Of a stretch of DNA of 64,000 nt, positions 4,876 to 33,741 are shown in pieces; within the stretch, counting starts at the first letter, position 1; every line of letters starts with the position of its first letter. The translations under genes were made by a program, and so were the position numbers. Source of the stretch: Eledone cirrhosa (Eukaryota). The notes under the pieces are model-generated. The model worked only from the letters and a program-made list of their open reading frames with translations. It ran no database searches and had not been told where the DNA came from. Location: positions 140,430,001 through 140,494,000 of the forward strand of contig OZ024740.1 in NCBI GenBank assembly GCA_964016885.1. Reading direction: 5' to 3'.

Positions 4876-4889
4876 ATCTTGGAAGTTGA

Positions 4890-8875: not shown

Positions 8876-8920
<45 letters not shown>

Positions 8921-9560: not shown

Positions 9561-9632
9561 TGGTTTTTCCAAAATTAAAATTTGTGTTTCCTATTCATCA
9601 ATGCTTCAAGCAAGCTATAAAACTGTTATATT

Positions 9633-10012
9633 TCATCATCATCATCATTTTATGTCAGTTCTTCTACGCTAGCATGGGTAGTCCTGTTGTGAGCAGTGTC
9701 CGGTCGGCTGACCTTGTCTTGCTCATACGGGAACTGATTCTGTCTTGATTTCTACAGCTGGATGCCCTTCCTAATACCAACCTCATTTACAGTGAGTGCT
9801 GGGTGTTTTTGTTTTTTTTTGTACCTCCACGACCACTTTGCAGTGGAATGATAGGGACCCCAGTCCTCTCATCTCATTTCTACAGCTGAGTAAACTGGAG
9901 CAATGTGAAATAGTGTCTAGCTCAAGGAAACAACACATCACCCGGTCCGAGAATTAAACTCACAACCTTTCAATTGCAAGCCCAATGCTCTAACCACTGA
10001 GCTATGTGCCTT
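9633..10012 (-). mobile_element. tRNA-derived SINE
   Basis: Reverse complement of the same family, with A/B boxes at about 9955-10010 and a (CAT)n tail. Confidence 0.85.
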
Positions 10013-10019
10013 CTATTGT

Positions 10020-11000
10020 TGGCAATGTTAGGTCAGGTGACCATGTCTTGCTCATAAAGAACTGATTTTGGCTTGGTTTCTACAGCTGGATGCCCTTCCT
10101 AATGCCAAGCTCATTTACAGTGAGTACTGGGTGTTTTCTGTTGTGATTCCTCCACGACTACTTTACAGTGTGGACTGGGTGTTTTTTACCGTGTCACCAT
10201 CACGACCACTTTACAGTGTTTCGGCCTGTTCTCATGAAAGATATATTGGCGAGTGGGATGGAGTGGTGCATACTGTATGTATATATCAGCCTTGGCCTGG
10301 GCCCGTGGGAAGTTGGGGTTTCTGTATTACCTCATAACGCCAGAGATCTTGGTCCTGTGTCATTGCCTTTCAGAGGTGCAATTGGGCAAGGTCGGCTTTT
10401 ATCACTTCATCTCAAGTCTTTCTGGGACTTTATGTAGCTGTCATCCTTCATACGAATCACATGTCCATACCAACATAATCTCCTCTCCTGCACACACCAT
10501 TTGATTTCTCTTATGCCTAGTTTCTCTTTCAGTTTGTTTATGCTTTGCTGTTCGCGTATATTACTATTACACATCCTTCGGAGCATACAAGCTTCATTCC
10601 TTTCTAATCTACGCAAGTCTTCTACACACAGCGCTCAGCTCTCACTACCAAGCAACATTGCTGTTCATATGCACACATCATACAGTCTACCTTTTATTCT
10701 GAGGGAAAAGCCTTTTGTATCCAGCTGTGGCAGTAGCTCCCTCAACTTCTTCCATCCCGTTCTTTCAGAACACCCCCCCTCCCCTCCGCTGCTAATTCAG
10801 TATTGTTTTTACCAAGTCCTCCCAGACTTTGATGTCACTTGTTTTCAGTGATTGTTTGCTGCTTACTGTCCTGGTGCAACTGCTACATGTAAAGCCTACA
10901 TTCTTAACTAAACTTCCTGAGATCCCACTACATCTCTTGTGTACCCATAGTTTGCATATGGGGCAGAGGATGGAGTTTCTACCTACACCTCTCCTACATA
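10020..11000 (-). mobile_element. RTE LINE 3' fragment
   Basis: RRLERNEACMLR...ERRLCWYGHV and CPICKLWVHKRCSG, matching the 30981-33347 ORF. Confidence 0.85.
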
Positions 11001-11042
11001 ATGAGCACACACACACACATATATATATACACACACTCATAT

Positions 11043-12040
11043 ACTAGCCGAATTACCAGCGCCTTGCTGCGTTTCACACATTTTTTTGGTAAGAAAATGA
11101 TTGATTTTAAATCAGTGATATAATTTATGGAGAAAAACTCAATATTACTCAATGTAAAATATAATGCATGAAAAATTGGAAAACATCATTTTTTGTAATA
11201 TATCAAATCAAAATTGCATTATTAAATCTTATTCTTATTTTGTTTCTTGTAAATAATTTTTTTCAAAATATCAATTGAAAACGTTTGTGAATAGGCATCA
11301 TATCTTGTCATTTACCTATGGTTTAAGTTTCATATAAATCGAAAGGGAAAAGTTTTCAGCGGGGGTTTGTACCCCCGGGGAACCCTAATAGGGGGTTTAA
11401 CCACCATTAAGGTGTCTTATAGTATTGAAATGTTGTGAATAGGCATCATAACTCTTCATTTATCTATGGTTTAAATTGCATATAAATCGAACCGAAAATA
11501 TTTTCAGCGGGGATTTTGTGCCCCCTGGTGAACCCTAATAGGGGGTTTAACCCCCATTAGGGTATTGTAATTTTATTGAAATTTGATGAAATGATGTGAA
11601 TAGGCATCATATCGTGTCGTTTACCTATGGTTTAAATTGCATATAAATCGAAGGGAAAACATTTTCAGCAGGGGTTTGTGCTACCGGTGAACCCTAATAG
11701 GGGGTTTAACCCCCATTAGGGTATTTTAATTTTATTGAAATTTGCTGAAATTTTGTGAATAGGCATCATATCTTGTCATTTACCTATGGTTTAAATTTCA
11801 TATAAATCGAAGGTAAAGTTTCAGCGGCGGTTTTGTGCCCCCGATGAACCCTTTGATTAAAATGAAATATACTTATACAAGTACCTTGGCAATGTAGTTT
11901 CAGAATATATATATGGTTATGGGGGTCTATCTCCAAAACCATAGGAGGAGTTTGTAAAATCTTGTTCCATTTATTGGCCAAACTTTTCACTATAGGGCGT
12001 TTAACCCCCATTAGGGTGTCTTAATATTATTGAAATTTGC
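11043..12040 (-). mobile_element. Non-autonomous Helitron-like element with internal ~150-160 bp tandem repeats
   Basis: Minus-strand terminus ...gcaaggcgctggtaattcggCTAGt resembles the Helitron ends at 56252 and 57784. Units start at 11287, 11435, 11596 and 11755. Confidence 0.6.
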
Positions 12041-12579
12041 ACACACACACATCACACACACACACATATATATATATATATACACAAACACACACACACA
12101 TATATATATATATATACACAAACACACACACATATATATATATATACACAAACACACACACACACATATATATATATACACAAACACACACACATATATA
12201 TATACACAAACACACACACATATTTATATCTTTTAGCAGAGCATTTTAATATTGCCACTCAATGAAAACCCTTTGTTTGTTTGGAATAAATGAATCTTGA
12301 AAATTAGGAGTGCCTGTCAGTGTGTGTGTGTTTGTCTACTTAGCATCAATTTACTACCCTCCCCTACCACCAGAAAATGTATAAATACCACCATATTACA
12401 TTGACAGTCGGCTTTTCTGATGATTTCCTCTGAATGAAACAATTCTAGTCCTGTTGAAGCCATTTCTATATTAAATATATATATATACTCTTTTAGCTGT
12501 TCCAGCCATCTGGCTGAGACCATGATTGGGCACTGCCCTTGTTGCTACACATTCTATCTCCAGCCTGTGTTGGCTGGCC

Positions 12580-13080
12580 ATTGATGTAAGAGGGGGTTCG
12601 TTGCTGCTGCCCTTAGTTTACCTTCGTACTGTGATGTGGGCTCATCCTGGATAACAGGGTGTCGAGAAGTTTCTTGAAAATATCCACGGCCACACCATGT
12701 AGATCTCTCAAATCCCTCGGCAGTTTGTTGAAGAGTTGAGGGCCTTTGAACCCGAGTCTATTGCAATATCTGCTTCTTGTTCTAGATGTGGAAGACGGGA
12801 CCTTTGTCACCACACAGTGACGTCCTGTTCGGGGGTTGGTCCCGCTCTCAATACCAAAGTTTGGCGCTAGTCCCTCCAGGATTTTCCATATGTATATCCC
12901 TGCATATCTCTCCCATCTTCGTTCCAAGGAGTAGAGTTTCAGTTCTTTTAGCCTCTCCCAGTAGCTCATCTCCTTCATCGTGCAATCCTCTTGGTGTAGC
13001 TTCGTTGGATTGTCTCAAGTTCCATGGTTAGTTTGATACTATGGGGTGACCACAGCTGGGAGCAATAGTCCAGGCAGCTT
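12580..13080 (-). mobile_element. CR1/L2-like LINE ORF2 C-terminal fragment
   Basis: MSYWERLKELKLYSLERR...IYIWKIL...LFNKLPRDLR...FKKLLD. Confidence 0.8.
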
Positions 13081-13969
13081 AGGACAAATGGCCTTCATAG
13101 TATCAACATGGTCTCCCGGTCTCTTATATAAAAAACCTCAAATAAAAAGTCAAGATTTGTTTCGATTTAACAGAGCAGAAAGAATTCGCGTCAGAATATT
13201 CCGACCAATCCAGCCTATATCAGCTGAATAAATATGTATATGGAGATATATATATACACACCCACATGCACATATATATATATATATACACACACACGCA
13301 CACACACACTCAAACACATGCATGCATACATGATGGCTGCCCCCTCGTTATCAAGTATGGCCATTGCACGATATACCATTATTAATAATTATTAATTAAT
13401 TCTATTGTGCAATGCCTGTGCATGAAGATATTTTTTTAAATGAGGAAAGACTGTGCACTGAGCCAATCCCACTCTCTGAGCGACAGTAGCTATAACCTGA
13501 AAAGAAGAAAATATCAACATCATCGGTAACTACTGAGCCGCAGGTTTTATATCGGAGTTATCCCAGTTTCCTGAGTTGCCTTCTCCTAGAAGAATGCCCT
13601 GACAAAGGCTAGGGGTCCTTCACTCCCAGTGGTTTAACCGCGTAATCGGGTGTCCAGCCTGATTATTTCTATGTCCCCGCGCATGTACATACACATGCAC
13701 CCATGTATATACACATATACATACATATGTACATGTGTATATACATATTTACACACTTTTGGATGGCCGTTGACTCTTATGAGATCTTCCGCCCTTTGTC
13801 AGGTTTTGTTTTTTGTCCTGCAGGGTGTCCAAAATCACCCTCCTCACCAAGTAAACTTGGTGGGGTTGCCAGTTTAGTCGCCGACGACCCGACCATGCGA
13901 CAGGTTGTACTGGGTTACATGTTACCAATAGCAGTCAAGAGTGACCCAACATACATACATACTACATGA

Positions 13970-16436
13970 TGGCTGCAAACTCGTGTTCAAGTATTGCCAT
14001 CGCCCGATAAAATGTTCAAAAATGTGAAGCACAAATGTGACTCTTTAAACCAGCCAAATACTTGCACCCTCTGGCACACACATGGCAACTTTAGGCTCCC
14101 CCGAAACCTTCCATTGCTTTGTTATGGCTGTATGTTCACATGTATCTTTTAAGACCTCCCATGCTTGTACATTTCTTACACCTTTTCAGATCATAATCTA
14201 CATGAGATCTACTGATATGACTTTGTTCATGTCTAATCAAACCAGCTTTGCTCAGGCTGACTCGACCACAGTGCTGGCAAACCAGATGATGTTCAACAGC
14301 AGGCAGTTCAGAACAGTCTCAATCCTCACCTTCCTTTTCAGTGTTAGGTGTTCTCTCCGACGAGTTTCAAAGTGTTCACCACCTGACTTGATCAAACGTC
14401 TCCACTTCACACGCTCGTCAGCCATTTTCTCCCATTCGTCAGATGAAATTCTAGCACAAGCCAAGGTGCCCCTGATACAGTCCCGGTACCGCCTTTTTGG
14501 TTTGTGGTGGTCGCCTTCCTTCACACAGTTCTCCATAGAGAAGTTGCTTTGGAATACGATCATCAGACATCTGGACCACGTGACTGCACCACCTCAACCG
14601 ATACAGAAAGATTATGCTCTCTATAGTCACGCACCTGCTCCGTTCTAGAACTTCTAAATCACTGGCGAACATTTTCCACCACACCCTAAGTAACTTATGA
14701 AGAGATTGTTGGTGAAATCTCTCCAGATCCTTGAGGTGCTTTCTGTATATGACCCACGTTTCACAAACATAAAGTAAAGAGGAGACGATACAAGTCAGAT
14801 ACACTTTCACCTTGGTTTGGATAGTGATACCTTGTCTGGACTATAAACGTTGATGCAGCCGTCCAAAAGCATCACTGGCTTTCTTGATTCTTAAGGATAT
14901 TTCATTATCATGTGTGCATGAAGTGTTCAACGTACTACCAAGGTAAACAAACTTGTCAGCAACTTTTAGCCTCTTTCCGTACACATACACACTTGGTGCA
15001 GTGTACTCGTTTCCAGGTACTGGCTGATACATCACAACAGTCTTTTCCAAGCTTATTGTGACGCCCAAAGTGCTGCAAGCTGCAGAAAAAGAGTTCATAA
15101 TATGCTGCATGTCACTTTGTGAATGTGCAAAAAGATCGCAGTCGTCTGCATACAAAAACTCTTGGATTGTAGATGTTAATACTTTTGTGCTTATACCAAA
15201 GCGCCTGGTGTTGAACAACCTTCCTGAAGTGCGATACCTGATGTAAACCCCATGAGAACAATATTTGAATGCCATGAGAAACACTATCGTAAAATATAAG
15301 GAAAACAGAGTTGGAGCCGGAATGTCCCCCTGCTTCACTCCATTTTCAACTGATATTGGTTCAGAGATGCTACCACCAATACTGACCAAAGCCTTCATGT
15401 CATCATGGAAAATATGCAGAATCTTCTACCCTACCTTGGATTTTTTTCCCACAACGCAGTTCGATTGACAGTGTCAAAGGCCTTTGTCAAGTCAACAAAG
15501 ACCTGGTAAAGGTCCATACATTGTTCGATACACTTTTCTTGCACCTGCCGAGCAGAAACGATCATATCCACTGTTCCTCTTTCGTTTCTGAACCCACACT
15601 GCGACTCAGGCAACACATTCAGACCAACTCTTGGAATCAATATTCGAAAACGACTTTACCAACTACTGAAAGAAGGGATATGACATGATAATTGCCACAT
15701 TTGTCCTTGCCGTCCTTTCCTTTATGGAGAATCACCATGAGCGCATCCTTCTTGTGGGACATTCTCATCTTCCCACACCATTTTCATGAGGTCAGTCAGG
15801 CGCTGCGTGAAGTTTTCACCACCACACTTCAAAACCACTCCACTCAGACCATCAATACCAGGAGACTTACCACAGTTCAGCTTATGCACAACAGAAGTCC
15901 CCTCTGCAAGAGAAGATACATTAGCCATCTCATATGCTTCACTGGTTCAATAGGAATGGAACAAATGAAATCATCATCAACCTGGGATGGCTGGTTTAAG
16001 AGCTCATCAAAGTGATCTCTCTATCTGTCGAGTGTCTTTTGGGTCGCACAGTAATTGCTTGCCATCTTTCGATCTCAAAGGGGCCACTGGAGAGCTGAAA
16101 GGGCCATACACCTCTGTGGGTAGAAAGTACGGCAGTTTCACATTGTTGCCGTCAGATGCCACTTGAACTTCATCTGCTTTGTTGCTCCACCAGGTATTTT
16201 GCATAGCCCTGAGTTTCACCTGCACTTCCTTCTTTACCTGTCTGTAATGCTCATAATTGTCACCAACAGAGCTACCACCTTTAAGAACTGCATCAAGTGC
16301 CTTTTGTTTTCTGTCTAGCAGAGCCTTGACCTCCTGGTCATTCTCATCAAACTAGTCCTTGTTTTCTTGTGACAAAGCCAAGGACCTCTGCTGAAGCCTC
16401 ATAGACCGAACTCCTGAAGTCCTTCCAGTTGTTCTC
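13970..16436 (-). mobile_element. BovB/RTE-1-like LINE, degraded reverse transcriptase
   Basis: ESQCGFR, VFVDLTKAFDTVNR, GVKQG..PAPTLFSLYF, FLYADDCDL, RIPKQLLYGEL across several frames. Confidence 0.9.
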
Positions 16437-17400: not shown

Positions 17401-17707
17401 TCGTATCTATGCGCAATATACGTAAAGATACAGAATTAATCATTTATATGTTCATAGAATGTAGAAAACAAGTCATTTTCACCAACAGTTGAATTACTTC
17501 TGACAGCTAATACCATGAACTTAAATGAATTTTCACCAACAGTGGAGTTACTTCTGACAGCTAATACCATGAAATATATGAACTAAAAAAAAAATTTCAT
17601 TTAAGTAACTCCAGTTACGCGTGGTAGTAATACGGAAATAAACGATGTTTTGCTTTCATCGGCTGCTTTCGACTGACAGCTAATAAATAGCGTTGAAGTG
17701 CCGTGTG

Positions 17708-17888
17708 TTTTTTCAGTACGTCTTCATCAGATAAAATATATGATTTGATATATGACATACCGCTACGGTCTTGATTATACAATTCCAGTATTGAAATATT
17801 GCCAATACTGGAATTGTATAATCAAGACCGTAGCGGTATGTCATATATCAAATCATATATTTTATCTGATGAAGACATACTGAAAAAA
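17708..17888. repeat. Near-perfect palindrome, 86-bp arms, 9-nt loop
   Basis: 17708-17793 is the reverse complement of 17803-17888 with one mismatch (17719/17877). Confidence 0.95.
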
Positions 17889-17924
17889 AAACAATACAGT
17901 ACCTTTGAAATATATATAATAAAG
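17860..17924 (+). ncRNA. Minimal type I hammerhead ribozyme, family A
   Basis: ttttat-CTGATGA-agacatactg...cagtaccttt-GAAA-t-atat-a-TA-ataaag. Predicted cut after 17918. Confidence 0.75.
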
Positions 17925-18820
17925 CATATATTTTGATTATGAGAATATCTTTCATTTGTTAATATTTTGAATATTAAAAACTTCAGGAAAACTTTTTCAT
18001 GTTGAGTGCTTTTAATCTATTGTAAAATTGTATTCATTGAGTAATCAACGAACCATATTAATCATTGGTTATATATATATATATATATTGACGTAATAGT
18101 CACTTATATATATTATGAATATGGGCTTCTTGCTCACATTAATTTCTCTATTTTCATTTATATATATATATATATATATATATTAAGAGAGTAAAACAAA
18201 GAATCCTTTAATACATCAAAAGTTTTTATTAGCCGACAATGATATATATATATATCAACACATACATGAATCGAGAAGTCAGAAACAATCAAAATTAGGT
18301 GCAAAGTTAGAAGATACAACAGTCATTAATTATATCAATACTTGCGAAATTCCGAACGTAAAGGCAAAGAAAGTTTTCATAGGTTTGTCTATTGTGTATC
18401 TGATGTCTCTTATTACCTACGAATGGACGGAGTAACAAAATAATAAACGTAGTGAAAAACTAATAACTTTAAAGGCAAATTTATAAGTAGGGAAAAAATC
18501 ATCGTTTACTAAGAATTAAACTTACCTTCGGGATTGATTAAATAACGGGAGGAGAACACAAGAGACGTGTGTGAGTTTCATAAAACAGATTTGTGTTCTA
18601 TATACACAGTATAATGCACGAAGATTTTTCCAGGAAAAAAATGTTTAACGAAATCGGAAAATGACACTTGTTGTAATTTGTTTTCAAGGGAGACAATCTA
18701 CAAACATACTTTATGTATAGACATGTGTGTTTGTGTATTTCTATATTTATAGAGCGTGAAACTAATAAACCTTTGTTTGTACGGCCTCTCTGTTTTGTTC
18801 CCGTTCCATTTTTCACTATA

Positions 18821-18859
<39 letters not shown>

Positions 18860-19370
18860 TTACATATATTTTATCTTCGTTTAATGTCCATCTTCCACGC
18901 TAGCATGGATTTTATTTATTTATTACATTTTTAGAAATACAGACTTATAATCAATTAATTATTGTTAAGAACCTTATAAATAAAATACACAAATATATAT
19001 ATACATATATCATAATCATCATCAACGTTTAATGTCCATTGTTCCACGCTAGCATAGGTTTTAGACGAGTCGGCCCGTTATAAGTTAGATCAGATGACCG
19101 TGTTTTGCACATACACAGCTGTCTCTGGGTTGGTTTCTACGGCTAGAATACCAACTTCATTTACAGTGCGTGCTGGGTGTTTTTTGTTGTGACACACACA
19201 ATCTCGGTATGGTGAACTAACTGTTGTGTAACCACTTCTACCTAACTCGTCCCTTGGACTGAGTGCTCTACCATTACGAATATTACCTTCCAGTGTTCCA
19301 CCACTATATATATATATATAATGACTAAATTATAACCATCAACATAGTCAAGGTATGTCAGGCATCAACT

Positions 19371-19436
19371 TATTTTATCTGATGAGGACGTACTGTTTAA
19401 ATAGCACAGTACCTCTGAAATATGTATAATAAAATA
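19371..19436 (+). ncRNA. Minimal type I hammerhead ribozyme, family A
   Basis: tattttat-CTGATGA-ggacgtactg...cagtacctct-GAAA-t-atgt-a-TA-ataaaata. 8-bp stem I; predicted cut after 19428. Confidence 0.8.
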
Positions 19437-19628
19437 TATTTGATCACATGAATGTCTATATTTATTAATATTTTGAAGTAATATATATATATATATATAT
19501 AAGCAAAGAGATATTTAATTTGTTGGTTATTCAACAAATTTATTTATAACAGATTCGAAGCACTCTACAAGTTTTCTGGAGTATAATATGATATTAATAA
19601 ATGGAAACTATATTTATAAAACCATATT

Positions 19629-19689
19629 TATTTTATTATATATATTTCAAGGGTACCATAATTTTGGTACGCTCTCATCAGATAAAATA
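19629..19689 (-). ncRNA. Minimal type I hammerhead ribozyme, family A
   Basis: Minus strand: tattttat-CTGATGA-gagcgtacca-aaatta-tggtaccctt-GAAA-t-atat-a-TA-ataaaata. Confidence 0.85.
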
Positions 19690-20339
19690 CAAAATTTGTT
19701 TTATAAATGTTGACATACCCAAGAAACCAGACCTTATCGGTTCAGGTTCAGTATATATATACTGTAATATATATACTGTAATGACGAGAGTCTATGGCTC
19801 CGTTAATGTATCGTGATATATACTGTATATATATATATGTGTGTGAATGAAGTAATTCCGTCGGAAAAGTCCAGGAAAAAAGAGTGCTCTAGACGCCAGG
19901 ATTTTTTCATTCTGATGTTTGAAAGCAAAATTTTTTGCTTTTAAGAAACCACTGGTAAATGGAATAATTGCCTTATGTTGTTTATTACATAACTATATAT
20001 ATATATATATATAATCAGATAGGGTGTGGTAAAAAAAAACAGGTGGACCATAACCCACCAGAGTACTCGATACTTGGGATAGTAGAGTGGGTAGAGCCTA
20101 GCCGTCAGGGTCCTGAATCTTTTCATATATATATATATGTATAAGTATATACACACATACAGTAATTTTGTTGTCTCTTACTGTGAAAATATATATCTTC
20201 TATTCCTCTACTTTATTCTAATTTCAAGTTCCCTCAAACTTACAATCATGTTCTAATGATATTGAATATACTTAAAGGTGTGACACTGAAATTCGTGAAC
20301 GTAATTAAGAATGTAGGTAATTAAGAATGTAGGATTCAC

Positions 20340-21529: not shown

Positions 21530-23968
21530 AGTGTCTAGCAACCATCGTTGGTACCGAAAGCTATCAACCACTTCTATAGCACCCACCTGCATTTGAAAAA
21601 TGTGTCTATCAATGCGACTTCTACTGTCTAATTTCCCTGTACATCAACTGCATACGTATTTCTTCCTACCTGTTAGTTTGCCTGCTATCCCACTACATCT
21701 CTTGTGTACCCAAGATCTGCATTGTGTGTATTTTATAGATTTTATGCCATTTCCTTTTCTGCATATCAAACATGGCCATTTCCCTGACAGAATCAGAGTT
21801 TTGTCCTCTTTTCTACTCATCAACACTTTTGTCTTAGCTAGGTTCACTCTCAGTCCTCTTGATTCCAATTGCTGTTTCCATAGACAGAATTTATTCTCTA
21901 GCTCCTCTACTGATTCTGCTATAAGAACCAGATCGTCAGCATAGAGAAGTTCCCATGGACAGCCAGTCTTAAACTCCTCTGTTATGGCTTGGAGGACTAT
22001 AATGAACAAGAGCAGGCTGAGGACCAAACCCTGATGTACCCCTACTTGTATCTGGAATACCTCACTAAACTTCCATTCCTACCCTCACTTTACTGACAGC
22101 ACCTCTGTACAAAGTTTGCACTGTCCTCACAAGCCATTCCTCAACACCTAGTTTCCTTAGGGTCCACCAGATGACAGATCGAGGTACCCTATCAAAGGCC
22201 TTCTCTAGGTCAACAAAATCTAAGTATAGTGGCTTATTCTTCTCTAAGAACCTCTCTTGTAACTGTCTCACCAAGAAGAGGGCATCTGTTGTACTTTTCC
22301 CAGGCACAAAACCAAACTGCATCTCATCTAGTTTGACCCTTTCTCTAATTAGTTGTGCTAATATCCTTTCTGCCACTTTCATAACCTGATCCATCAGTTT
22401 TATACCCCTATAATTGTTCCTCTCCAGAGCATCCTCTTTGTAGCAATTTATGAGAATACTGCTGCACCAGTCTTTTGGTATGACACCACCATATATAGCC
22501 TGATTGATGATGCGTGCAACCAGTTTGGTGCCTATATCCCCTGATGCCTTCAGCATATCAGCAACTATCCCCGACGGTCCAGCGGCCTTACCATTTTTCA
22601 TTTCCTTAATCGCCTCTTGGATGCTATATTCATCAATCTCAATAGCTGGTCCCTCTGTTGGATCTACTGAGGGTAATTTCTCTCTGTCCCATTCGTTCTC
22701 CACATTCATCAGTCTCTCATAATGACATTTTCAAGCCTCCTTTTTCTGATCATTCGTGACACTAAGTACACCGGCATCATTCCGGACACATTTATCTCCA
22801 ACATCCTGATTTGCATTGACACACTGCCTTGCAATGTGGAACACTGCACGTCTCTGATCTTCCCATTGCAGAACATTGGCAAACCTCCTACTCTCAGCCT
22901 CCCTGCGTGCTAAATACACCTGACGTCTAGCTTCTCTCTTAGCGACTGTATATCCATCCCTACTCCCACCCTTTTTCCAAGCCTTCCATGCTACTCTTTT
23001 GTCTCTAGTGGTCCTATCTACTGTGCCGTTCCACCACCAGGTCACTCTCTGTCTGGTTGGAGCTCTGCTCCAGCCACAAGTTTCATCAGTAGCCTGCAGT
23101 AAGTTATCACGTAAGAAATTCCAGTTATCATCTATGTCATACGACTCTAAATCGTCTTCTTTTTCGTCATACACATCTTGAAGGGCTTTCCTAAATTTAT
23201 ATTTTAGTGAAAGGTCTTTTAGCTTCCAGACCTTTCTTCTCAACACCTTCCTGTATGTCTCATTCCATCTCTTGCTTACTGAGATATCACTAACGACTAA
23301 CCTATGCTGTGGGGTACATTCTTCCCCAGGGTATGCCTTGGTATTTGACACCATCTGCCTGTCCCGCTGCCTAATTAGTAAGAAGTCAATCTGGCTTATG
23401 TGCTTGCCTGATTTGTAGGTTATTAGGTGCTTGGCAGGTTTCTGGAAGTTAGTGTTGCAAATGGTTAGTGTACTTGCATCACAAAATTCAAGAAGTCTCA
23501 CTCCTTCTTCATTTTTGGAGCCGTAACCATGCCCACCATGTACCCCAGTGTAACCATCCTGGAGCTGTCCAACATGACCATTGAAGTCCCCTGCTAGCAT
23601 AAAGTAGTCTCCGTCCTGTCATTGCGGCTGTTTGTAAAAGTTGCTCGTAAAAGCAGTCTTTCTCTTCTTTACCTAGGCTTGCTTGGGGAACATAGGCAGA
23701 GATGATTGTCAGTAGTCTCCTGCCTACAACTAATCTAAGCTTAATTATTCTATTATTAACTCAAACTACCTCTGTTGTCTTATCGATCCATCTCTCAGCC
23801 AGGAAAATGCCTACTCCCCCTAACCGATCATCCTTACCTACCTAAAGCTTATAACTAAGATGTTTGCCTGTGATTAGTCTCGCAGAGGAACCTCTCCATC
23901 TCACCTCTTGCACGCAGCACACATCCACATGCCTTGCCTTCTCTCCAGCATCTCCGCTATTTCACCAG
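21530..23968 (-). mobile_element. RTE LINE, degraded APE endonuclease plus RT
   Basis: AGDFNGHVG, SQIDFLL, QFGFVPGKSTTDA, FVDLEKAFDRVPR, ELLYADDLVL. Confidence 0.92.
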
Positions 23969-23999
<31 letters not shown>

Positions 24000-24049
24000 T
24001 AATAAAATGATAGGAGCCTGGACTTGTGTAAATCCTTGAAAGGTTTATT

Positions 24050-24107
24050 ATACTATGATCATTTCAATGACCAGGTTGCATATGAATCCGGTGATATCAT
24101 CAGGTAT
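24050..24107 (-). ncRNA. Minimal type I hammerhead ribozyme, family B
   Basis: Minus strand: atac-CTGATGA-tatcaccgg...cctggtcatt-GAAA-t-gatc-a-TA-gtat. Confidence 0.7.
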
Positions 24108-24583
24108 TCGAAATATAATAAATGAATGTAATAGATAAAATCCATGGGGCTGAAAATCACAGACCGGAGGATGACCGACCATCTAGCATCTTCCACTTTA
24201 GCCGGTCGCCCTCAAGTGCTGGCTATTCGGTCTACTTGAGGCTATCTGGTGAGGGGGCTAAAGCTACTGTGCTACTACCCTCCTGGTCAAATAGAAGAAA
24301 AACAGAAAGGGAGAGGAAGATAAGTCAGCGTTAATATCATGCTACAAGAAAAAAGACAGAAAGAAGGGGGAAGAAAAGGAAGAAGAAGAAAAGTCAGCGT
24401 TAATGTCGAGCTATAAGAAGAAAGACAGAAAGAAAGAGGAAGAAAAGTCTGTATTGATGTCAAGCTACAGTCAGGCCAGGAATGGTGTGAAAAAAATTTA
24501 TTCTAAAGGACCCGTATCTTAACAGAGGTATATATTATAACAGAGGTAAATATAGTAGGGGTCTGCATGTTATAATGTGTGAG

Positions 24584-25718
24584 CAGAAGATTGGAACGTT
24601 AAATTTTTGTTTAGATTTATAGGATGAAGTTACAAAAATTTAATATTTAATATTAACATTATAAAATTAAAGAAATTAGGAAATTGAAAATTAAACAGTT
24701 TAACATTTTTTAGATTTTGGTTGCGAGGTTTAAGTAAAGAAAGAGTCTTTTATGAAGAAACTTAAATTGTATTATAGAGTAAAGGATATGTCCTTGTTTA
24801 GCAGTCAAACAGCATGCGGCGACTGCAGGCTCCGGCCAGCCCAACCTTACCTCGTGTCAGCCATTCCGAGTGAGATCGCCTAGCGAAAGATATGGAAATC
24901 AATTTTTCCAAGCACTCTAGGAATGTATAACAGGCTTCAGGTGCGCTAGTGGGAAGTCAGCCATCGTCGTTAGGCCATCCTTGTACCAAACCAGTACTAT
25001 TAATTTACCCAGGAGGGGGATTTGTTTAAGTAGAGGGAGGCGTGATACATCTAATAGTTATGATTAGGTCTATAATTTAAAGGTACTATATGGCGGTAAA
25101 AAAAACGGCTGCGCGCCGGGTCCCTGGGGGCGAATCAAGCCACTCCGAGTAGTTTCATTTACCGAAAGAAGGGGAAATTTACTTTTCCAAGCACTCAAGG
25201 TAGGCCTATGCGCCAGGAGGCCGGTCCCACAGCCAGGAAAACCAACCCAACAGTCCGACAGAAAATTGGAACGTTAAATTATTGTTTAGATTTATAGGAT
25301 GAAGTTAAAAAAATTAAAGATTAACATTATAAAATTAAAGAGTTAGAAAATTGAAAATTAAACAGTTTAAAACTTTTTTGAGGTTTTGGGTTGCGAGGTT
25401 TAGTTAAAGAAAGAGTCTTTTATGAAGAAACTTTAATTGTATTATAGAGATCCTCTATAAGTTATGCTAGTGGGATGTAGAGTAAAGGATATGTCCTTGT
25501 TTAGCAGTAAGACAGCATGTGGCGACTGCAGACCCCTGCCTGCTCATCCTAACCACGTGTCAGCTATTCCGAGTGAGATCGTCTAGCGAAAGATATGGAA
25601 ATCAATTATTCCAAGCACTCAAGGAATGTATTCCAGGCTTCAGGTGTGCTAGTGGGAAGTCAGCCATCATCGTTATGCCATCGTTATGCCAAACGAGTAC
25701 CATTAATTTATACAGGAG
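24584..25718. repeat. Internal ~430-460 bp duplication (24584-25015 vs 25259-25718)
   Basis: Both begin cagaa(g/a)attggaacgttaaatt and share gtaaaggatatgtccttgtttagcagt and gctagtgggaagtcagccatc. Confidence 0.9.
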
Positions 25719-26442
25719 AGTCCGGGCAATAGCTATTATTGTTCTCAGGGGGAGACATTCTAGTGTCGTGTGCTAATGGGTACAAGCGAGTAAAAGTCCG
25801 AATAAGAGGAGTAAAAAATACATGGATATATAGAAGTAGAATACGTGGAAAAAGCACATTAATAAAGCAAAGGTAGAAAGATATAAATAAACAAACAAGA
25901 GTGGTGGTGGAGTAAAATGGAGAAAACACAGGAGAAATACAATATAGTTCAAGTTGCAGTCAGATAATGCATATAGATGTGGAAATGGAATCAGTGTGTG
26001 TTCGAGTCTGAGAATTCAGTGTGAGTTACACAGGCCCTGAAGTATAGGGTAGAGAATTTAGTCAATACAGTACAGTACAATACAGGTTATGGTATAATCC
26101 GTAGAATTTTGTCAAAGTCTGAATATTCCGAGAAGGAAGTAGCATTGGGCCAGGTGGGCTCAGAGTAGCCAAAAACCGAATGGTGGTTAGATCCAGTTAG
26201 TCCTATGCCGCTGTTCATTATTACATTTGGAAGTGCTCAACATTTCAGGAGCATCATTTATTCAGGTTTGAAGGTTCACCACTGGATAGAGCTGGTCAAT
26301 CTTAATGTAATAATATGGAGAGTACTCAACGTAAAGCAGTTCAACCGTCTTCGTTTTTGTAGTTGGTGGTGCGAGTACGGAGTTAAATATTATAATAAAA
26401 TGACAGGAGTCTGGACTTGTGTAAATCCTTGAAAGGTTTATT

Positions 26443-26500
26443 ATACTATGATCATTTCAATGACCGGTTTCCATATGAATCCGGTGATATCATCAGGTAT
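26443..26500 (-). ncRNA. Minimal type I hammerhead ribozyme, family B
   Basis: Direct-repeat copy of 24050-24107 at offset 2393. Stem II tatcaccgg/ccggtcatt. Confidence 0.7.
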
Positions 26501-26548
26501 TCGAAATATAATAAATGAATGTAATAGATAAAATCCATTATATTTCGA

Positions 26549-26606
26549 ATACCTGATGATATCACCGGATTCATACAGAACCTGGTCATTGAAATGATCA
26601 TAGTAT
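26549..26606 (+). ncRNA. Minimal type I hammerhead ribozyme, family B (inverted copy)
   Basis: atac-CTGATGA(26553-59)...GAAA(26591-94)-t-gatc-a-TA-gtat. Confidence 0.7.
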
Positions 26607-28416
26607 AATAAACCTTTCAAGGATTTACACAAGTCCAGACTCCTGTCATTTTATTATAATATTTAACTCCGTACCAGCACCACCAACTACAAAAACGAAG
26701 ACGGTTGAACTGCTTTACGTTGAGTACTCTCCATATTATTACATTAAGATTGACCATACGGAATTGACCAGCTCTATCCAGTGGTGAACCTTCAAACCTG
26801 AATATATATATATATATACACTCACATTTGGAGTTTCAAATACAAGTGTATATATAAACATAGGTTAGAATGAAGATAGCTTGACACAAAATGATGTATT
26901 TTTATTTCTTATTTTAATCATTGAATATAATTACACCATAAACATATTTCACCCATGTCATTGCAATTCCTTGTCATTGCATTGAGTTCTGCTCATAATT
27001 AAATTAACATTGAAACCATTTTAGGTTCTGGTTTATTCATTTACCATTGGGGTTGGGGTACCTTCAGTTTCTCTTTCCAGGTATCATACCTTCCAGATAG
27101 GTTTTAGAGAGACTACAAGTTGGACATTCAATGTGGCTAAACAGTTTAAATTTATTAAAGATTATTTGTTGGATCATTTTTTCTAGCTGAAATCTTTTAC
27201 CTCTGTCAGTTAGTAGTAAGTTTTGTAGCATGGTTTTGAAATAATTCAATTTTTTAATGTGTTTTTGCAGACAAGGTATCACAATCTAATCCCTACAGAA
27301 ACACAAGAATGTAAGTGTTATATATAACACAATGCATTTATTCCCATTTAATTCATTTAAATAATAATTATTGAGGTTATAAAGATGGTTTTTCAATTGT
27401 TCTTTTTATCGGGATGGTCAACTTTTCTGGGTCAGTGTTATATATTTTGCAATTGCTGGAAAACAGGATGACTGGGTGCATCTAGGCCTGTGTAAAGCTG
27501 GTTATAGGCCCAGTTCACATGTTAAAAAAATAAGCAGGCCCGGTATCTGGGTCTTTAGCACCCTGAGTTTTCCAAATTATATAATTTCAACTTACAGTTT
27601 AGTAAGCTGACAAACCTAGTTTTTGTCACTTCTTGTTGTGATCACTCTAAGTAAATTACTAAGCCTGCATTTTCCACTGTACAATCCACACTCACCCATA
27701 CCAAATCATCTGACAGGTCATAACACCATACAACACTACCCACTGCCTTGGATATTTCCACAGTGCTGCTATACAGCAAATATGTTTAAGGATTTATTTA
27801 TTGATTGCAGGAAATTTAATTTAATTCTACACATTTATAGTTGGCCTTAATAGGAGCATGCCTGGAAAATGTTTAATAATAAATTTCCTTAATTGTGACA
27901 AAATAAATAACAACAAAATCTTGGTGAACAGGGCTATGTGATAATTACATGTCTTGGCCATAGATGCAATGCAGTTTTGGTAAAAGAATATGAAATTACA
28001 GTTCTTCAGCTAAATTTCCAACATTCTAACAACTCAGTTGCCTGAGTTATCTACTCATACATTTGATGCTGTTGACTTCAGAGAGCAGCACAAAATACTA
28101 TTCACGTCTTTCTCAAAGGCTCTGAAAAGGATTATAGTCACTGTCCTTACATCCATAACTAAACAATAAAAAAAAAAATGCCATTGTCAAATTACTTTCT
28201 CAAAGAGAGTAGGCACAAGATAACATCTAAGAGGGAAAGTAAAAACAAGATGAAATAATGATCATATATGATTTTATTGGGCACTATCAATCAATTAACA
28301 GATCAATAAATAATAAATAAATAAATTAATTGAAAATTACATCAAATATTGTCATCGAGTCACACAATCAGTTGCTAATGGGAGTGATCATGTAGAAAAT
28401 AATACTTGACAGTGAC

Positions 28417-29427
28417 TTATAAATTACGCTCCGATGGTTTCTTGAACTTCATTCCAATATAGTCGAATGTATCTTGTTCAGAAGACACAGGCAATGGCTC
28501 TCCTGGAATCCCTGTACTTCCCATTGGTCGAATGCAGTATTCATTGAGTGTAAATCCATTTTCCAAAGCACGACCCCGCATATCTTTATTGAACATATCG
28601 CTACCGGTGAAATAAAGCAGTGCACAATAATACTGGTCATGAGGGATTAAACGGAGATCAAATCTTCGAAAATGTCGCTTGGTTTCCTTGTCATGCTCTG
28701 GAAGACGACAGACCCCCATAAATTTTGAGTCCCCCATAGAAATAGTATCCGTTATCAACCCCTTATTGGTGAGATATTTTACTACTGCCTTAAGCAATTC
28801 TGGTTTCTTCTTATCAGCAGCAACATAGTCTGGATGTGTTAACAAAACATCAATGTCTCCAGAAGAAATAGCCCCTCTTCGATAACTTCCACAAACTTTA
28901 GCTTCATACTTGGGGTCAACTTTGTTGATTCTTGCTAATATTCTGTCTCGTAAATCAGTTATTTCTTCACGAGGAATTCTCATTTCAAAGTCTTCAAAAT
29001 GTTTCACACCAATTTTCTGGTGGTGATTCAGTTTATCAGTGATCTTCCGGAGATCTTCAATATCTTTTATTCCATCCTTGGCAAAGTTGGCAGCTGCAGC
29101 AGGACCTATTCCAGACACTTTGGTCAATTCACTGATGGCCATATTCATGTCATTAGCTCGGATTTTGTTCAGCTTTTCAAGCTGTCCTGTACGAATGAAT
29201 TCATCAATTTTTTTGCCTATTTTATCTCCTATACCATTCAGCCTCTTTGCTTCTTCTCCATTTTTAATCCTCGTAGGGTGCTTAGCAAGAAGTCCAGCAG
29301 CTTTTCGATAAACGTTATACTTATGCAAGGCACGTGTGACATTCTTTTCATAATTGGCAAGCTCCATGAGAAAGTCACAGAAATCTGAATTCAGATTTTC
29401 AGTATGTGGGTTCTTTCGTTTACTCAT
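28417..29427 (-). CDS. POLB: DNA polymerase beta (family X), single-exon CDS, 336 aa
   Basis: MSKRK N-terminus, lyase HhH GIGDKIGKKIDE, VSGIGP, CGSYRRG, catalytic GDIDVLL and RRFDLR, YFTGSDMFNKDMR, C-terminal PSER. Confidence 0.97.
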   Translation of the reverse strand: MSKRKNPHTENLNSDFCDFLMELANYEKNVTRALHKYNVYRKAAGLLAKHPTRIKNGEEAKRLNGIGDKIGKKIDEFIRTGQLEKLNKIRANDMNMAISELTKVSGIGPAAAANFAKDGIKDIEDLRKITDKLNHHQKIGVKHFEDFEMRIPREEITDLRDRILARINKVDPKYEAKVCGSYRRGAISSGDIDVLLTHPDYVAADKKKPELLKAVVKYLTNKGLITDTISMGDSKFMGVCRLPEHDKETKRHFRRFDLRLIPHDQYYCALLYFTGSDMFNKDMRGRALENGFTLNEYCIRPMGSTGIPGEPLPVSSEQDTFDYIGMKFKKPSERNL

Positions 29428-29474: not shown

Positions 29475-30239
29475 AATTGTCAGATTTTACTCTTATTTTA
29501 TTCATTTTTAATTAATTCTTTTAACCTTTACATTACCAGATTTCTAATGAAAGACATTCTCATATATTTTCAAATCATTTTTAAAATAGCCAAGAATTTG
29601 CAGAGATTTAGTAATATAACAAACTTTCTTTATTAAGCTGGAACATAACAAGGGTTATTACATAAAATTATGATGAACGTTTTTAAAATAAACTGCTTAG
29701 TATTGTAGCACCAGGGGCAGTTTCATATGATTTGGTATTAAAAGGGTTAATAAAGCTTCTTTTTTAAGTATCATATTTTTTTTTTATTTCAAAAGAGTTG
29801 ACCAATTCCAGCTTTCATCAAGTGAAGGTAGGAATATTAGCAAGTGGCAGTTATAACATTGTAAAAGCTAATATGAGGAAGTAGGAAACAGATATATAAA
29901 TTGCAATTGATAGTGTTATTGTCATGATAAAACGCACCCAGTCATCGCTGAAAAGTGGTAGTGTTGGTGTCATAAAATGCACCCAGTACACGCTATAATA
30001 TGGATATCATGCACAAAATGAATATATGAGTAAGATATGTTTCCCCAACTTGTTTAATCTCAAACTGGTGGCAGTGGTGGTGATGGTATGAATTTTTCAA
30101 AAGTTAAACAGAGGCATAAAATGTTCAAATTACTTGGGAAAATACACTGTGCTTTTTATAAATGATGCGACAGAAAAAAGAAAGATATACTAGTGAGACA
30201 GTAATGATTAACATATTTGATGACGATATAATAATGTAA

Positions 30240-33200
30240 TAACCCCAAATGTAATAACCAACATAACCCCAACCCCATCCCCCTCACCCCTCCCCGAGCC
30301 CCACCGTTCCCACCCACCAAACGCAACCCAAAACTTCAGAGTTGGTACCATAAATGTAGGCACCTTAAAAGGTTACTCTAATGAGGTTGTAGAAATGCTT
30401 GAGCGTAAGGAGGTTGATGTTTGCTGTATCCAAGAGACCAGATGGAGGGGTGGGTCTGCTAGATTCATTGTGGGTAAAAAACGATGCTATAAGCTTTTCT
30501 GGGTGGGAAATGACAATGGGCTGGGTGGGGTAGGAATCATGTTAGCAGAAAAATGGGTAGATAAGATAATAGACGTAAATAGAGTGAACGACAGAATAAT
30601 TAAAATAAGACTTGTCCTAAATAGAACTACTGTGACAGTAATATCTACGTATGCACCCCAATCCGGACTGCCTGGCATTATAAAAGATAGATTCTATGAG
30701 ACATTGATGCTCACTACCTCCCAAATAACCGACAGTGACTACATAATTATTGCTGGCGACCTAAATGGTCACATTGGACAACATTGTGATGGCTATGACG
30801 GAATCCATGGAGGCTATGGGTTTGGTACTAGAAATGAGGAAGGCTCCAGAATCCTGGAATTCTGTGATGCAAATAACCTAACTATCTGTAACACTAACTT
30901 CAAAAAACGAGACAATCACCTATAGATCAGGGGAACATGCCAGTCAGATAGATTATATCCTTACCAGAAGACGGGATAGAGTGTCTGTTGTAAACACTAA
31001 ATCCCTCCCCCATGAAGAATGCACCTCCCAACATAGACTCATAGTCAGGACAAGACGTACTCGACAACAGAGGAGGACTATCCTCAGGAGAAAAATATGG
31101 AAGCTAAAGGACCCAACAGCCAGTAATAAATTTAAAAGCATATTACTTGATGCTTTTGACAGTAAGGAGGAGCAATTAGAGTCGTACAATATAGAGGAAC
31201 AGTGGGAATTCCTGAAAGCTAACCTGATGAAGGCGACAGATGAAGTCTGTGGCTGGAGCAGACCTATAGGCAGGAGGAGAGTAACGTGGTGGTGGAACAG
31301 TAAGGTGGAGGAGTCAATTAAGGCCAAAAAGCAGGCTTGGAAAGTATGGCGGGATGGGGGAAGTAGAGAAGACTATCAAGTGGCCAGGAAGGAAGCTAGG
31401 AGACAAGTGTACTTCGCAAGAAGGGAAGCAGAGGAAAGAAAGTTCAAGCATGTTCTACAATGCGAGGACCAAAAACGTGTGGTGTTCAGGATTGCTAGGC
31501 AATGTGTCAAGGAAAACAGTGATATTGTCGGGGAGAAGTGTGTCCTTAATGATGATGGTGTACTTGCCATCACTGACGCTGATAAGAAGGTAGCTTGGAA
31601 GTGTCACTACGAAAGGCTACTAAATGAGGAGAATAAATGGGAGAAAGATAGTCTCCCCCACATTGATCCAATAGAGGGACCAGCAGTGCTAGTTGAAGGT
31701 AGTATAATAAGTAAGGCAATCAAAGATATGAAGACGGGTAAGGCGGCTGGGCCTTCGGAAATAGTTGCTGAAATGCTGAAAGCATCTGGAATGGTGGGAC
31801 ACACTATGGTCAACCGGATAGTAAACCAAGTCATACAGAATGGGGTCGTTCCGAAGGACTGGCGTAGCAGCATCATCATTAACTGCTACAAGGGTAAAGG
31901 AGATGCCCTAGATAGGGGTAACTATAGAGGCATTAAATTAATCGACCAGGTCATGAAGGTCACAGAAAAAGTAATAGCGCAACTAATCAGAGAGCGAACT
32001 GATCTAGATGAAATGCAGTTTGGGTTTGTGTCAGGTAAAAGTACCACAGACGCTCTTTTCATTGTACGACAACTACAGGACAAGTACCTAGCTAAAAGTA
32101 AACCCCTATACTTAGCTTTTGTTGACTTGGAGAAAGCCTTTGACAGAGTCCCCCGCTCCATTATCTGGCGGGCTCTTAGAAAACTAGGTGTTGATGAATG
32201 GCTTGTGAGAGCTATACAAGCCATGTATAAAGAAACAGTCAGCAAGGTTAGAATTAACAACGAATATAGTGAAGAGTTTAGTGTAAAAGTTGGTGTTCAT
32301 CAGGGCTCTGTTCTTAACCCCCTACTATTTATTATTGCTCTTCAGGCTATAACAGAGGAGTTCAAGACCGGCTGCCCACGGGAACTCCTATACGCAGATG
32401 ATCTAACGCTCATAGCTGAATCAATGGCTGAACTAGAGAAGAAATTCCAAACATGGAAGCATGGCCTAGAATCAAAAGGCCTTAAAATTAACCTTTCTAA
32501 GACTAAAGTTCTAGTTTGTAGGAAGGAAAATAGGGCACCGGTCCCATCTGGGAAATGGCCATGCTTAGTGTGGAGGAAAGGAGTAGGCAGAAACTCCATT
32601 TTATGTCCCAAATGCAAAGTATGGGTGCATAAAAGATGTAGTGGGATCACAGGTAAGCTAACTAAGAATATAGATTTTATATGTGGCCGGTGCTCTGGTG
32701 CAATAAGTAGCAGCAAGTGGCCACAGAATACTAGTTCATTCCATTGCACAGATGGTTCTATAGAAATAGTGGACACCTTCCGTTACCTGGGTGACAAAAT
32801 CAGCAGTGGTGGAGGGTGCTCTGAAAGTACAGTAGCTAGAGTCAGAACGGGATGGAAAAAGTTCAGAGAGCTTATACCACTATTGGCCGCTGAAGGGTTC
32901 TCTCTAAAAATGAAAGGCAGGCTGTATGATGCCTGCATACGAACAGCAATGTTACATAGCAGTGAGACTTGGGCATTGTGTGCAGAGGATATACGCAGAC
33001 TGGAGAGGAACGAAGCTTGCATGCTCCGCTGGATATGTAATAGTAATATACGTGAACGGCAAAGCATAAACGAACTAAGGGAGAAATTAGGAATAAGAGG
33101 GATCAGATGTTGTTTACTCAAGAGAAGACTACGTTGGTACGGTCACGTGATGCGTATGAAAGACGACAGCTGTATAAAAAAGTGCAGGGCGATAAAAATA

Positions 33201-33741
33201 GACGGTAGCCACAGAGTAGGCAGACCCAGAAAAACCTGGGATGACTTGATAAATTCCGACCTCACACACTTACACCTCTCCAAGACAATGTCACTGGACC
33301 GAGATCTTTGGCGCTACACAGTAATACAGAAGACCCGCCTTGCCTAAGTACAAAGTGAAACCTACAGTCAGTAGGCACTTCTAACAAAAACACCCCCACC
33401 CACCCGTCCCACTACCCCCACCCCATCCACACCACCCCTTTCAATGTAAAGTTATGTTGGTACCACAACATCCAGTCCGAAACAAATGAGGTCGTGTAGG
33501 TGTCATGACAAAAAAAACACAGTCCACGCTGTAATGTGGCCGTGTAGGTAACACAGTAAAAACCTCCCAGTCCACACTGTAAACGTGGTTGGTGTTAGGA
33601 AGGGCATCCAGCCATAGAAAACCCGCCAGACAGTCCTATACAAGCAAGACAACCAATCTTGCCTCAAGTGGGAAAATTCCCGTCCAAACCCATGCAAGCG
33701 TGGAAGATGGATGTTAAACGATGATGATGATGATGATGATG
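30240..33741 (+). mobile_element. Nearly full-length RTE LINE (APE + RT), one frameshift near 30920
   Basis: FRVGTINVGTL, CIQETRW, YAPQ, GDLNGHIG. The 788-aa ORF has DLEKAFD, GVHQGSVL and YADD. 3'UTR and (GAT)n tail present. Confidence 0.95.

What the first reader, a model, noticed from the sequence alone, without database searches (positions are those of the whole stretch)
23996..26804. 2.8-kb non-coding element framed by three hammerhead ribozymes: a very large retrozyme candidate
Seen: 150-bp direct repeats exactly 2393 bp apart, each with a complete minimal type I hammerhead on the minus strand (CUGAUGA / GAAA / U-GAUC-A / AUA cut). A third copy sits in a ~254-bp inverted repeat at the 5' end. 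Both flanks are (TA)n, the interior has duplications, and no ORF is recognisable. Known: Penelope-like pseudo-LTRs and retrozymes carry such hammerheads, palindromic stem III loops allow dimeric cleavage, and described animal retrozymes are usually a few hundred nt. Inference: the two co-oriented ribozymes could release a 2393-nt monomer that circularises and is mobilised in trans. Caveat: stem I has only 4 contiguous bp and the first stem II pair is U.U, so activity is unproven.
Basis: partly seen in the sequence, partly recalled or inferred. Interest (0 to 1): 0.85.

Follow-up and report, generated by a model that had tools for sequence, protein, structure and literature searches.

The report
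Large non-coding Penelope passenger element
This 2.8-kb insertion in an octopus-type genome has the textbook end layout of Penelope-like jumping genes, with three hammerhead-ribozyme motifs, but wraps a repeated non-coding body, so it is likely a passenger copied by Penelope enzymes, unusual mainly for its size; self-cutting and a circular RNA are untested.

Summary
Observation confirmed: 150-bp direct repeats 2393 bp apart, an adjacent inverted copy, three type I hammerhead motifs and (TA)n flanks. This is the published layout of endonuclease-bearing Penelope-like elements (PLEs): two direct pLTRs, a shorter inverted pLTR and a tail (PMC3846280, PMC8557442). The hammerhead is of the PLE type. 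The body has no ORF and no PLE protein remnant, so it is not a recently decayed autonomous copy. Read depth suggests thousands of pLTRs and tens to hundreds of bodies with structural variants (rough). Best reading: a non-autonomous PLE family mobilised in trans, inserted from two priming sites 130 nt apart. Both arms run through intact cleavage sites, so the template was uncut or religated RNA. A 2393-nt circle is possible but has no direct support, and in the one PLE tested in vitro uncut RNA was the main substrate (PMC11167929). The unit exceeds reported animal retrozyme lengths (51-972 bp), but that survey capped the repeat period at 1000. This scan noted many smaller elements of this design in this and other genomes; no look-alike of this sequence was listed. 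New member of a known kind.

The parts
23969..23995 (.). Left (TA)n target flank; abuts a 5'-truncated RTE-type LINE on the minus strand
   Evidence: LINE ORFs at 22065-23618, 67% DNA match to the RT-encoding LINE at 30413-32662
23996..24145 (-). 3' pLTR (copy A); ends 58 nt past the predicted cut and runs into (TA)n through an AU-rich match (inferred RT start site 1)
24050..24107 (-). Type I hammerhead motif A; core begins 24103, predicted cut after 24054
24146..24305 (-). GC-richer segment upstream of the 3' pLTR, modest folding signal (z about -2)
   Evidence: depth bin 24169-24335 about 10,000 in X1
24306..24447 (.). 69-bp tandem pair, pyrimidine-rich on the element's sense strand
24584..25015 (-). 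Internal repeat unit R2, with one copy of the 63-nt motif (24859-24921) and a TATA-like box (24621-24615)
25138..25200 (.). Third, diverged copy of the 63-nt motif (75% identical)
25259..25718 (-). Internal repeat unit R1 (82% to R2 by BLAST, so likely older than the insertion), with 63-nt motif at 25562-25624 and TATA-like box at 25296-25290
25719..26258 (-). Non-repeated 5' part of the body; lowest depth of the element (about 1,000-3,400 in X1, flank about 20)
26259..26388 (-). 130-nt 'tail': the stretch between the two inferred RT start sites; present after copy B and in the inverted arm, absent after copy A
   Evidence: depth about 1,800 at 26229 against a bin mean of 21,954 for 26173-26339
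26389..26538 (-). 5' pLTR (copy B); begins 92 nt upstream of the predicted cut
26443..26500 (-). Type I hammerhead motif B; core begins 26496, predicted cut after 26447
26537..26804 (+). Inverted arm (copy C): pLTR shortened by 26 nt at its 5' end plus the tail; joined head-to-head to B with a 2-nt overlap and a 24-nt unpaired spacer
26549..26606 (+). Type I hammerhead motif C; core begins 26553, predicted cut after 26602
26802..26818 (.). Right (TA)n target flank; overlaps the end of the tail by an AU-rich match (inferred RT start site 2)

Best explanation
This is one copy of a repeated, protein-free element with the end layout of Penelope-like retrotransposons, likely pasted into a (TA)n repeat by the reverse transcriptase and GIY-YIG endonuclease of an autonomous Penelope-like partner acting in trans. 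Shown: layout, hammerhead motifs, lack of ORF, repetitiveness. Inferred mechanism: the partner nicks both strands of (TA)n and primes reverse transcription at two internal sites of the element RNA, 58 and 188 nt past the hammerhead cut. One arm copies a full 2393-nt unit plus 150 nt (the direct pLTRs), the other copies 254 nt in the opposite direction, and the two join head-to-head at a 2-nt overlap. The 130 nt between the start sites is the 'tail'. Both arms cross intact cleavage sites, so the template was most likely an uncut read-through or tandem transcript. The hammerhead is a weak, dimer-type PLE ribozyme inherited with the pLTR and is not needed to explain the structure.
For: Layout equals the 'typical Penelope structure' of Pen2a_Av: two direct pLTRs, an adjacent inverted pLTR shorter than the full ones, a tail on one inverted end; the same layout was found around a host gene and non-coding cargo, read as mobilisation in trans (PMC3846280). 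Partial tandem + inverted 5'-truncated copy + tail + (TA)n bias are listed as PLE hallmarks, and non-autonomous PLEs with pLTRs are described (PMC8557442). Hammerhead geometry (helix I 4 bp, long helix II, palindromic helix III) fits PLE min-HHRs (PMC4209133); U.U at the stem II base occurs in 14 of 26 Hydra-clade rows. All 6 descriptor hits in the window share a C.C mismatch at stem II pair 4 and the same cut offset while stem II letters covary. No coding remnant: 0 Pfam families in 6 of 6 frames; best tblastn E of 161 PLE proteins on the element is 0.009, within the range of 5 shuffles (0.0007-0.022), while 160 of 161 hit a decayed PLE at 41-43 kb of the same window. Summed contig depth in X1: flank bins 16-56, pLTR bins 135,000-200,000, tail bins 22,000-44,000, body bins 1,000-15,000; raw reads of another study pile to 7,579 in the body against 7 or less in the four flank bins 26841-27508. 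In the anole PLE, RT starts at two internal sites that define the tail, and hammerhead cleavage is not needed for insertion (PMC11167929).
Against: No autonomous partner with this pLTR was seen (no genome held). The tail is 130 nt against the published 30-40 nt. No second full-length copy was read, so linkage of body and pLTRs in other copies rests on depth and short contigs, and the tool states that summed depth is no copy number. Hydra and Naiad proteins were not among the tblastn queries; Hydra was tested only with six short motifs (no match clearly above 20 shuffles, best 2 of 20 reaching the score). In the anole system RT start sites are not homologous to the cut DNA, whereas both ends here show AU-rich matches to (TA)n. 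Fold-back self-priming, rather than second priming, could also make the inverted arm.
Confidence: 0.72

Rival explanations
1. Giant retrozyme: the two co-oriented hammerheads cleave (as a dimer), the 2393-nt monomer is ligated into a circle, and PLE RT copies round it more than once, giving the 150-nt direct repeat.
For: One unit plus 150 nt spanning the cut site is what copying round a circle would leave; this route was proposed for PLEs (PMC4209133). Private differences among the three copies in the shared 124 nt are even (3, 2, 2), compatible with identity at insertion. The helix III octamer can pair between copies. A U.U-based axolotl hammerhead cleaves and its retrozyme circularises (PMC7229834).
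Against: An uncut linear template gives the same layout, and was the dominant substrate in the only PLE tested. PLE min-HHRs cleave poorly even as dimers; 1 of 9 Xenopus dimer constructs cleaved. The partners would be 2.4 kb apart. 5 of 7 variable sites among the copies fall in 8 nt of distal stem-loop II, which hints at different templates, while a monomer circle needs A = B at insertion (three of the five sites are in CpG-type contexts, so this is not decisive). Relatives skip 151-333 nt of the body, so monomer length is not fixed.
Confidence: 0.13
2. A one-off composite: abundant short pLTR copies flank unrelated repeats or captured host DNA, and the pile was copied once or never as a unit.
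For: pLTR depth is roughly 10-190 times body depth, so most pLTRs lack this body; body depth is uneven between bins (1,000-15,000), as for a mosaic. Capture of host DNA between pLTRs is reported (PMC3846280).
Against: Every body bin is at least about 40 times the flank depth; no (TA)n or pLTR fragment lies inside the body; diverged contigs span neighbouring body segments (24154-24341, 24192-24362, 25778-26271) and joints link distant body parts in other copies.
Confidence: 0.09
3. A decayed autonomous PLE (for example of the compact Hydra clade, 2.1-2.7 kb, (TA)n-targeting) whose ORF is no longer readable.
For: Unit length and target fit Hydra elements, which occur in Octopus bimaculoides (Hydra-1_Obim, 2507 bp); the U.U hammerhead form is common in that clade; Hydra RT is very divergent from the proteins I could query.
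Against: The terminal repeats are only 2-4% apart, yet all six frames carry 37-51 stops per about 704 codons; about half of the body is internal duplication and low-complexity DNA; six Hydra motifs score as in shuffles; a far more decayed PLE in the same window is found easily.
Confidence: 0.06

Closest known systems
EN+ Penelope-like element insertions with direct plus inverted pLTRs, including pLTR-framed cargo moved in trans (Pen2a_Av, Pen3a-NRPS; PMC3846280, passages and section 9 read)
   Same: Two direct pLTRs, adjacent shorter inverted pLTR, tail on one end, no element ORF between the pLTRs in the cargo cases
   Different: Here the cargo is itself repeated (tens to hundreds by depth) and non-coding; tail 130 nt rather than 31; (TA)n target hides any target-site duplication
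Non-autonomous PLEs such as MRC1 of Chlamydomonas (PMC8557442 passages; bioRxiv 10.1101/2022.06.16.496473 one passage)
   Same: No ORF, pLTR-forming, mobilised in trans
   Different: Chlamys clade mostly lacks canonical hammerheads; algal host; no sequence comparison made
Metazoan non-LTR retrozymes (PMC7229834 passages; bioRxiv 10.64898/2026.07.22.740005 parts 1-3 of 5)
   Same: Non-coding, type I hammerhead per unit, head-to-tail repeat of the hammerhead region, PLE-derived, GC below 45% (0.39)
   Different: Unit 2393 nt against about 220-400 nt (tested cases) or 51-972 bp (survey with a 1000-bp period cap); 1.06 units, not a tandem array; PLE-type rather than canonical hammerhead; cleavage and circRNA untested
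Hydra-clade PLEs (PMC8557442 section 11 and supplementary Files S1, S2 read in part)
   Same: Under 3 kb, (TA)n insertion, hammerhead near the 3' end, frequent U.U at stem II base, present in Octopus
   Different: No ORF or Hydra motif here; the hammerhead listed for Hydra-1_Obim differs, and two exact motifs of this pLTR had 0 hits in that supplement (line breaks could hide a match)

Membership tests
Non-autonomous EN+ Penelope-like element | Direct pseudo-LTRs from a partial tandem | tested here: met
   150 nt, 97%, 2393 apart
Non-autonomous EN+ Penelope-like element | Adjacent inverted 5'-truncated copy at the 5' end | tested here: met
   26537-26804, 26 nt shorter at its 5' end
Non-autonomous EN+ Penelope-like element | Tail extension at one end only | tested here: met
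   Present on the inverted arm, absent at the 3' pLTR; 130 nt, longer than the published 30-40; depth step near its end
Non-autonomous EN+ Penelope-like element | Type I hammerhead motif in the pLTR, short helix I, long helix II, palindromic helix III | tested here: met
   against PMC4209133 and File S2 of PMC8557442; the G10.1-C11.1 pair of min-HHRs is absent
Non-autonomous EN+ Penelope-like element | Insertion in microsatellite or AT-rich target | tested here: met
   (TA)n on both sides
Non-autonomous EN+ Penelope-like element | Many copies, mostly short 3' ends | tested here: inconclusive
   Depth profile fits, but no loci were read
Non-autonomous EN+ Penelope-like element | Autonomous partner sharing the pLTR or 3' end | not testable with these tools
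   No genome held; a decayed PLE RT of another, unlinked copy lies at 41-43 kb
Autonomous PLE | ORF with RT and GIY-YIG endonuclease | tested here: not met
Metazoan non-LTR retrozyme | No protein coding | tested here: met
Metazoan non-LTR retrozyme | Tandem repeats of short monomers (about 220-400 nt; 51-972 bp in a survey) | tested here: not met
   One 2393-nt unit plus 150 nt; sizes
Metazoan non-LTR retrozyme | Canonical type I hammerhead (helix I about 6 bp, helix II about 4 bp, loop-loop contact) | tested here: not met
   4-bp helix I, interrupted long helix II; no Rfam hammerhead hit
Metazoan non-LTR retrozyme | Self-cleavage | not testable with these tools
   Needs an in vitro assay
Metazoan non-LTR retrozyme | Accumulation as circular monomer RNA | not testable with these tools
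   No raw RNA reads available for this stretch

The most novel reading that the evidence does not exclude
The family lives as a 2.4-kb hammerhead-processed circular RNA, several times larger than any described animal retrozyme, carrying its own structured repeats and promoter-like boxes, and Penelope enzymes copy round the circle from both sides of a break in (TA)n. Large retrozymes would then be a hidden class missed by tandem-repeat screens capped at 1 kb.
Probability: 0.12. Interest if true: 0.62.

Novelty: new member of a known kind. Interest (0 to 1): 0.3.

Why it matters
As best explained it is an ordinary kind of passenger element, but it shows that hammerhead-bearing non-autonomous PLE derivatives in animals can reach 2.4 kb, beyond what the published retrozyme screen could see (period cap 1000). 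Its two ends mark two candidate RT start sites 130 nt apart, which gives a substrate for the open question of how PLE inverted ends and tails form and whether the hammerhead is used. If a circle were shown, it would be the largest animal retrozyme RNA among the papers read here.

Tried and rejected
Whole-genome copy search: no genome held. Rfam: 0 hammerhead families among 11 matches at E<=1; the matches are hairpin-driven miRNA/snoRNA models below gathering score and are rejected. Pattern scans for the hammerhead: 0 loci in metagenome contigs, 0 in viral contigs. Sequencing runs: 7 listed, 4 hold part of the stretch, no RNA holder listed; 4 of the 7 were laid; the type of X4 is not on record and it is not used as evidence on expression. 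Base-level ends of other copies, and presence or absence of this insertion in other individuals, remain unread. Earlier-findings look-ups by sequence (pLTR+tail, body, neighbourhood): nothing. Scrambled-order hammerhead in the 63-nt motif: rejected, the only C[U/C]GANGA cores in the element are the three known ones. tRNA: 0. RNA-editing scar between R1 and R2: no A>G excess (5 A>G among 37 differences counted). A 43-codon ATG-started frame after the tail (within 26087-26236) had no significant PLE protein hit and was not searched further. Papers: 7 searches listed none that describes this family; PMC13282606 (passages) reports 31 recently active Penelope-like families in O. vulgaris without mentioning ribozymes, and its supplement was listed but not read; Repbase and Dfam were not available; supplements of the bioRxiv retrozyme preprint were not seen and could hold longer families. 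PMC6962438: two passages, not informative beyond 235 hammerhead loci in giant squid.
Full report
Observation. Direct repeats of 150 nt at 23996-24145 (A) and 26389-26538 (B) are 97% identical and 2393 apart. An inverted arm at 26537-26804 (C) mirrors 26259-26512. Each copy carries a type I hammerhead motif with predicted cuts after 24054, 26447 and 26602. A descriptor (core, at least 7 of 9 stem II pairs, 4-bp stem I) finds 6 sites in the window against 1 hit in 50 shuffles. Both flanks are (TA)n. Rfam lists no hammerhead match at E<=1, and the monomeric ribozyme fold is about 15-17 kcal/mol less stable than the minimum-energy fold, as expected for a motif that needs a dimer or a protein.

Host and abundance. 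An intact DNA polymerase beta ORF in the window is 91% identical to an Octopus vulgaris protein, the best of 13 hits, so the host is an octopod. No genome was held. Four of seven listed runs were laid on 23000-28000. In X1 the summed contig depth is 16-56 in the five unique flank bins (two further flank bins at 27509-27842 are another repeat), 135,000-200,000 on the three pLTR bins, 22,000-44,000 on the tail bins and 1,000-15,000 on the body. X2, the same sample, agrees. Raw reads from another study reach 7,579 in one body bin against 7 or less in the four flank bins next to the element. The tool warns that this is no copy number; I read it only as an order of magnitude: thousands of pLTRs, fewer tails, tens to hundreds of bodies. 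Depth is about 1,800 at 26229 but averages 21,954 in the bin 26173-26339, so many copies stop near the end of the tail. Joints show relatives that skip 151, 242, 322 or 333 nt of the body, so the unit length varies.

Coding capacity. Six frames gave 0 Pfam families. The interior has 37-51 stops per about 704 codons in every frame. I used a decayed PLE RT at about 41.3-43.1 kb of the window to collect 161 PLE proteins (RT and GIY-YIG confirmed in 2 of 4 scanned, one domain in the other 2; 83 of 161 carry the CX2-5CxxC linker). 160 of 161 hit that decayed copy; on the element the best E was 0.009, inside the range of five shuffles, and a profile of all 161 scored nothing there. Six short Hydra-clade motifs scored as in shuffles. 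Full Hydra and Naiad proteins were not tested. With terminal repeats only 2-4% apart, a lost ORF would still be visible, so the body was very likely non-coding before this insertion.

Comparison with print. PMC3846280 (passages and section 9) calls this the typical Penelope structure: two direct pLTRs, an adjacent shorter inverted pLTR and a tail on one inverted end. It reports the same frame round a host gene and round non-coding DNA, moved in trans. PMC8557442 (passages, section 11, parts of the supplement) lists partial tandems, an inverted 5'-truncated copy, a 30-40-bp tail and (TA)n bias as PLE hallmarks and describes non-autonomous PLEs. PMC4209133 (parts 1-2 of 4) describes PLE hammerheads with 4-5-bp helix I, 7-8-bp helix II and palindromic helix III, low activity even as dimers, and proposes circles as templates. 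The U.U at the base of stem II appears in 14 of 26 Hydra-clade rows of File S2 and in an axolotl hammerhead that cleaves 22% in one hour as a monomer (PMC7229834, passages). PMC11167929 (parts 1-2 of 4) shows for an anole PLE that both target strands are cut and extended, that RT starts at two internal sites which define the tail, and that hammerhead mutants insert normally.

Mechanism. Shown: the long arm is one 2393-nt unit plus 150 nt, ending 58 nt past the A cut and starting 92 nt before the B cut. The short arm starts 188 nt past the cut and runs 66 nt beyond it. Both outer ends run into (TA)n through a few AU-rich matching bases, and the arms meet with a 2-nt overlap and a 24-nt spacer. 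Inferred: a partner PLE nicked both strands of (TA)n and primed at two fixed RNA sites 130 nt apart. A doubly cleaved linear monomer cannot be the template without a template jump, because all three hammerheads are whole. Uncut read-through RNA or a religated circle both fit. I favour uncut RNA on the anole result and the weak ribozyme. The copies add a hint: private differences are even (3, 2, 2 in 124 nt), which a circle allows, but 5 of the 7 variable sites cluster in 8 nt of distal stem-loop II, and B and C also differ by a doublet and a 14-nt insertion in the tail. That pattern suggests different templates rather than one circle or a fold-back copy; three of the five sites are in CpG-type contexts and one is a common family variant (26473), so it is not decisive.

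The body. It holds an older duplication (R1/R2, 82%), a 69-bp tandem pair and a 63-nt motif in three copies that folds as a three-way junction on the plus strand in two copies and on the minus strand in two (z -3.4 for the best fold, -1.9 or weaker for the other five). It has no Rfam match, no tRNA and no further hammerhead core. R1 and R2 each carry a TATA-like box with an initiator-like run about 30 nt downstream on the sense strand (read; consensus recalled; AT-rich DNA makes chance likely). These parts are unexplained.

Earlier notes of this scan report many 310-570-nt hammerhead elements with the same two-armed (TA)n layout in this and other genomes; they are unchecked AI notes and are not counted as support. 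No look-alike of this sequence was listed.

Verdict. A real, well-formed non-autonomous Penelope-like element; the architecture is known, the family appears undescribed in the papers searched, and the size is its one unusual trait. The giant circular retrozyme is not excluded (about 0.12). Interest 0.3.

Noticed in passing
window 17660-18090, 19320-19480 (+), 19483-19720 (-): Short pLTR-like fragments of other hammerhead families among (TA)n runs: cores at 17866 (+), 19379 (+), 19681 (-), and a truncated one at 17730 (-) that forms a head-to-head palindrome with 17866. The three complete ones share the C.C mismatch at stem II pair 4 and a palindromic helix III with the element studied, with covarying stem letters.
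   Followed up: partly
window about 41300-43060 (+): Decayed Penelope-like RT with frameshifts and stops; hit by 160 of 161 PLE proteins. C-rich, not linked to the element studied.
   Followed up: partly
window 28420-29424 (-): Intact, intronless DNA polymerase beta ORF (335 aa), 91% identical to an Octopus vulgaris protein; possibly a retrogene, intron state in relatives not checked.
   Followed up: partly
window 30224-33631 (+): Nearly intact RTE-type LINE (clade name recalled) with an 821-codon RT frame that carries a weak PHD-finger match (below the Pfam cut-off) at residues 569-604; many fragments of related LINEs fill the window.
   Followed up: no
window 24859-24921, 25138-25200, 25562-25624: 63-nt motif in three copies predicted to form a three-way junction; no Rfam match; function unexplained.
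   Followed up: partly
window 167-3976 and 6760-7791: Long (CTAACA)n-derived satellites grading into 12/24/72-bp repeats with low-complexity open frames rich in N, T, A and D.
   Followed up: no
window 57211-57609 (+): Open frame with a CxxC/CC pattern that resembles the N-terminal part of Helitron Rep proteins (resemblance recalled, not tested).
   Followed up: no
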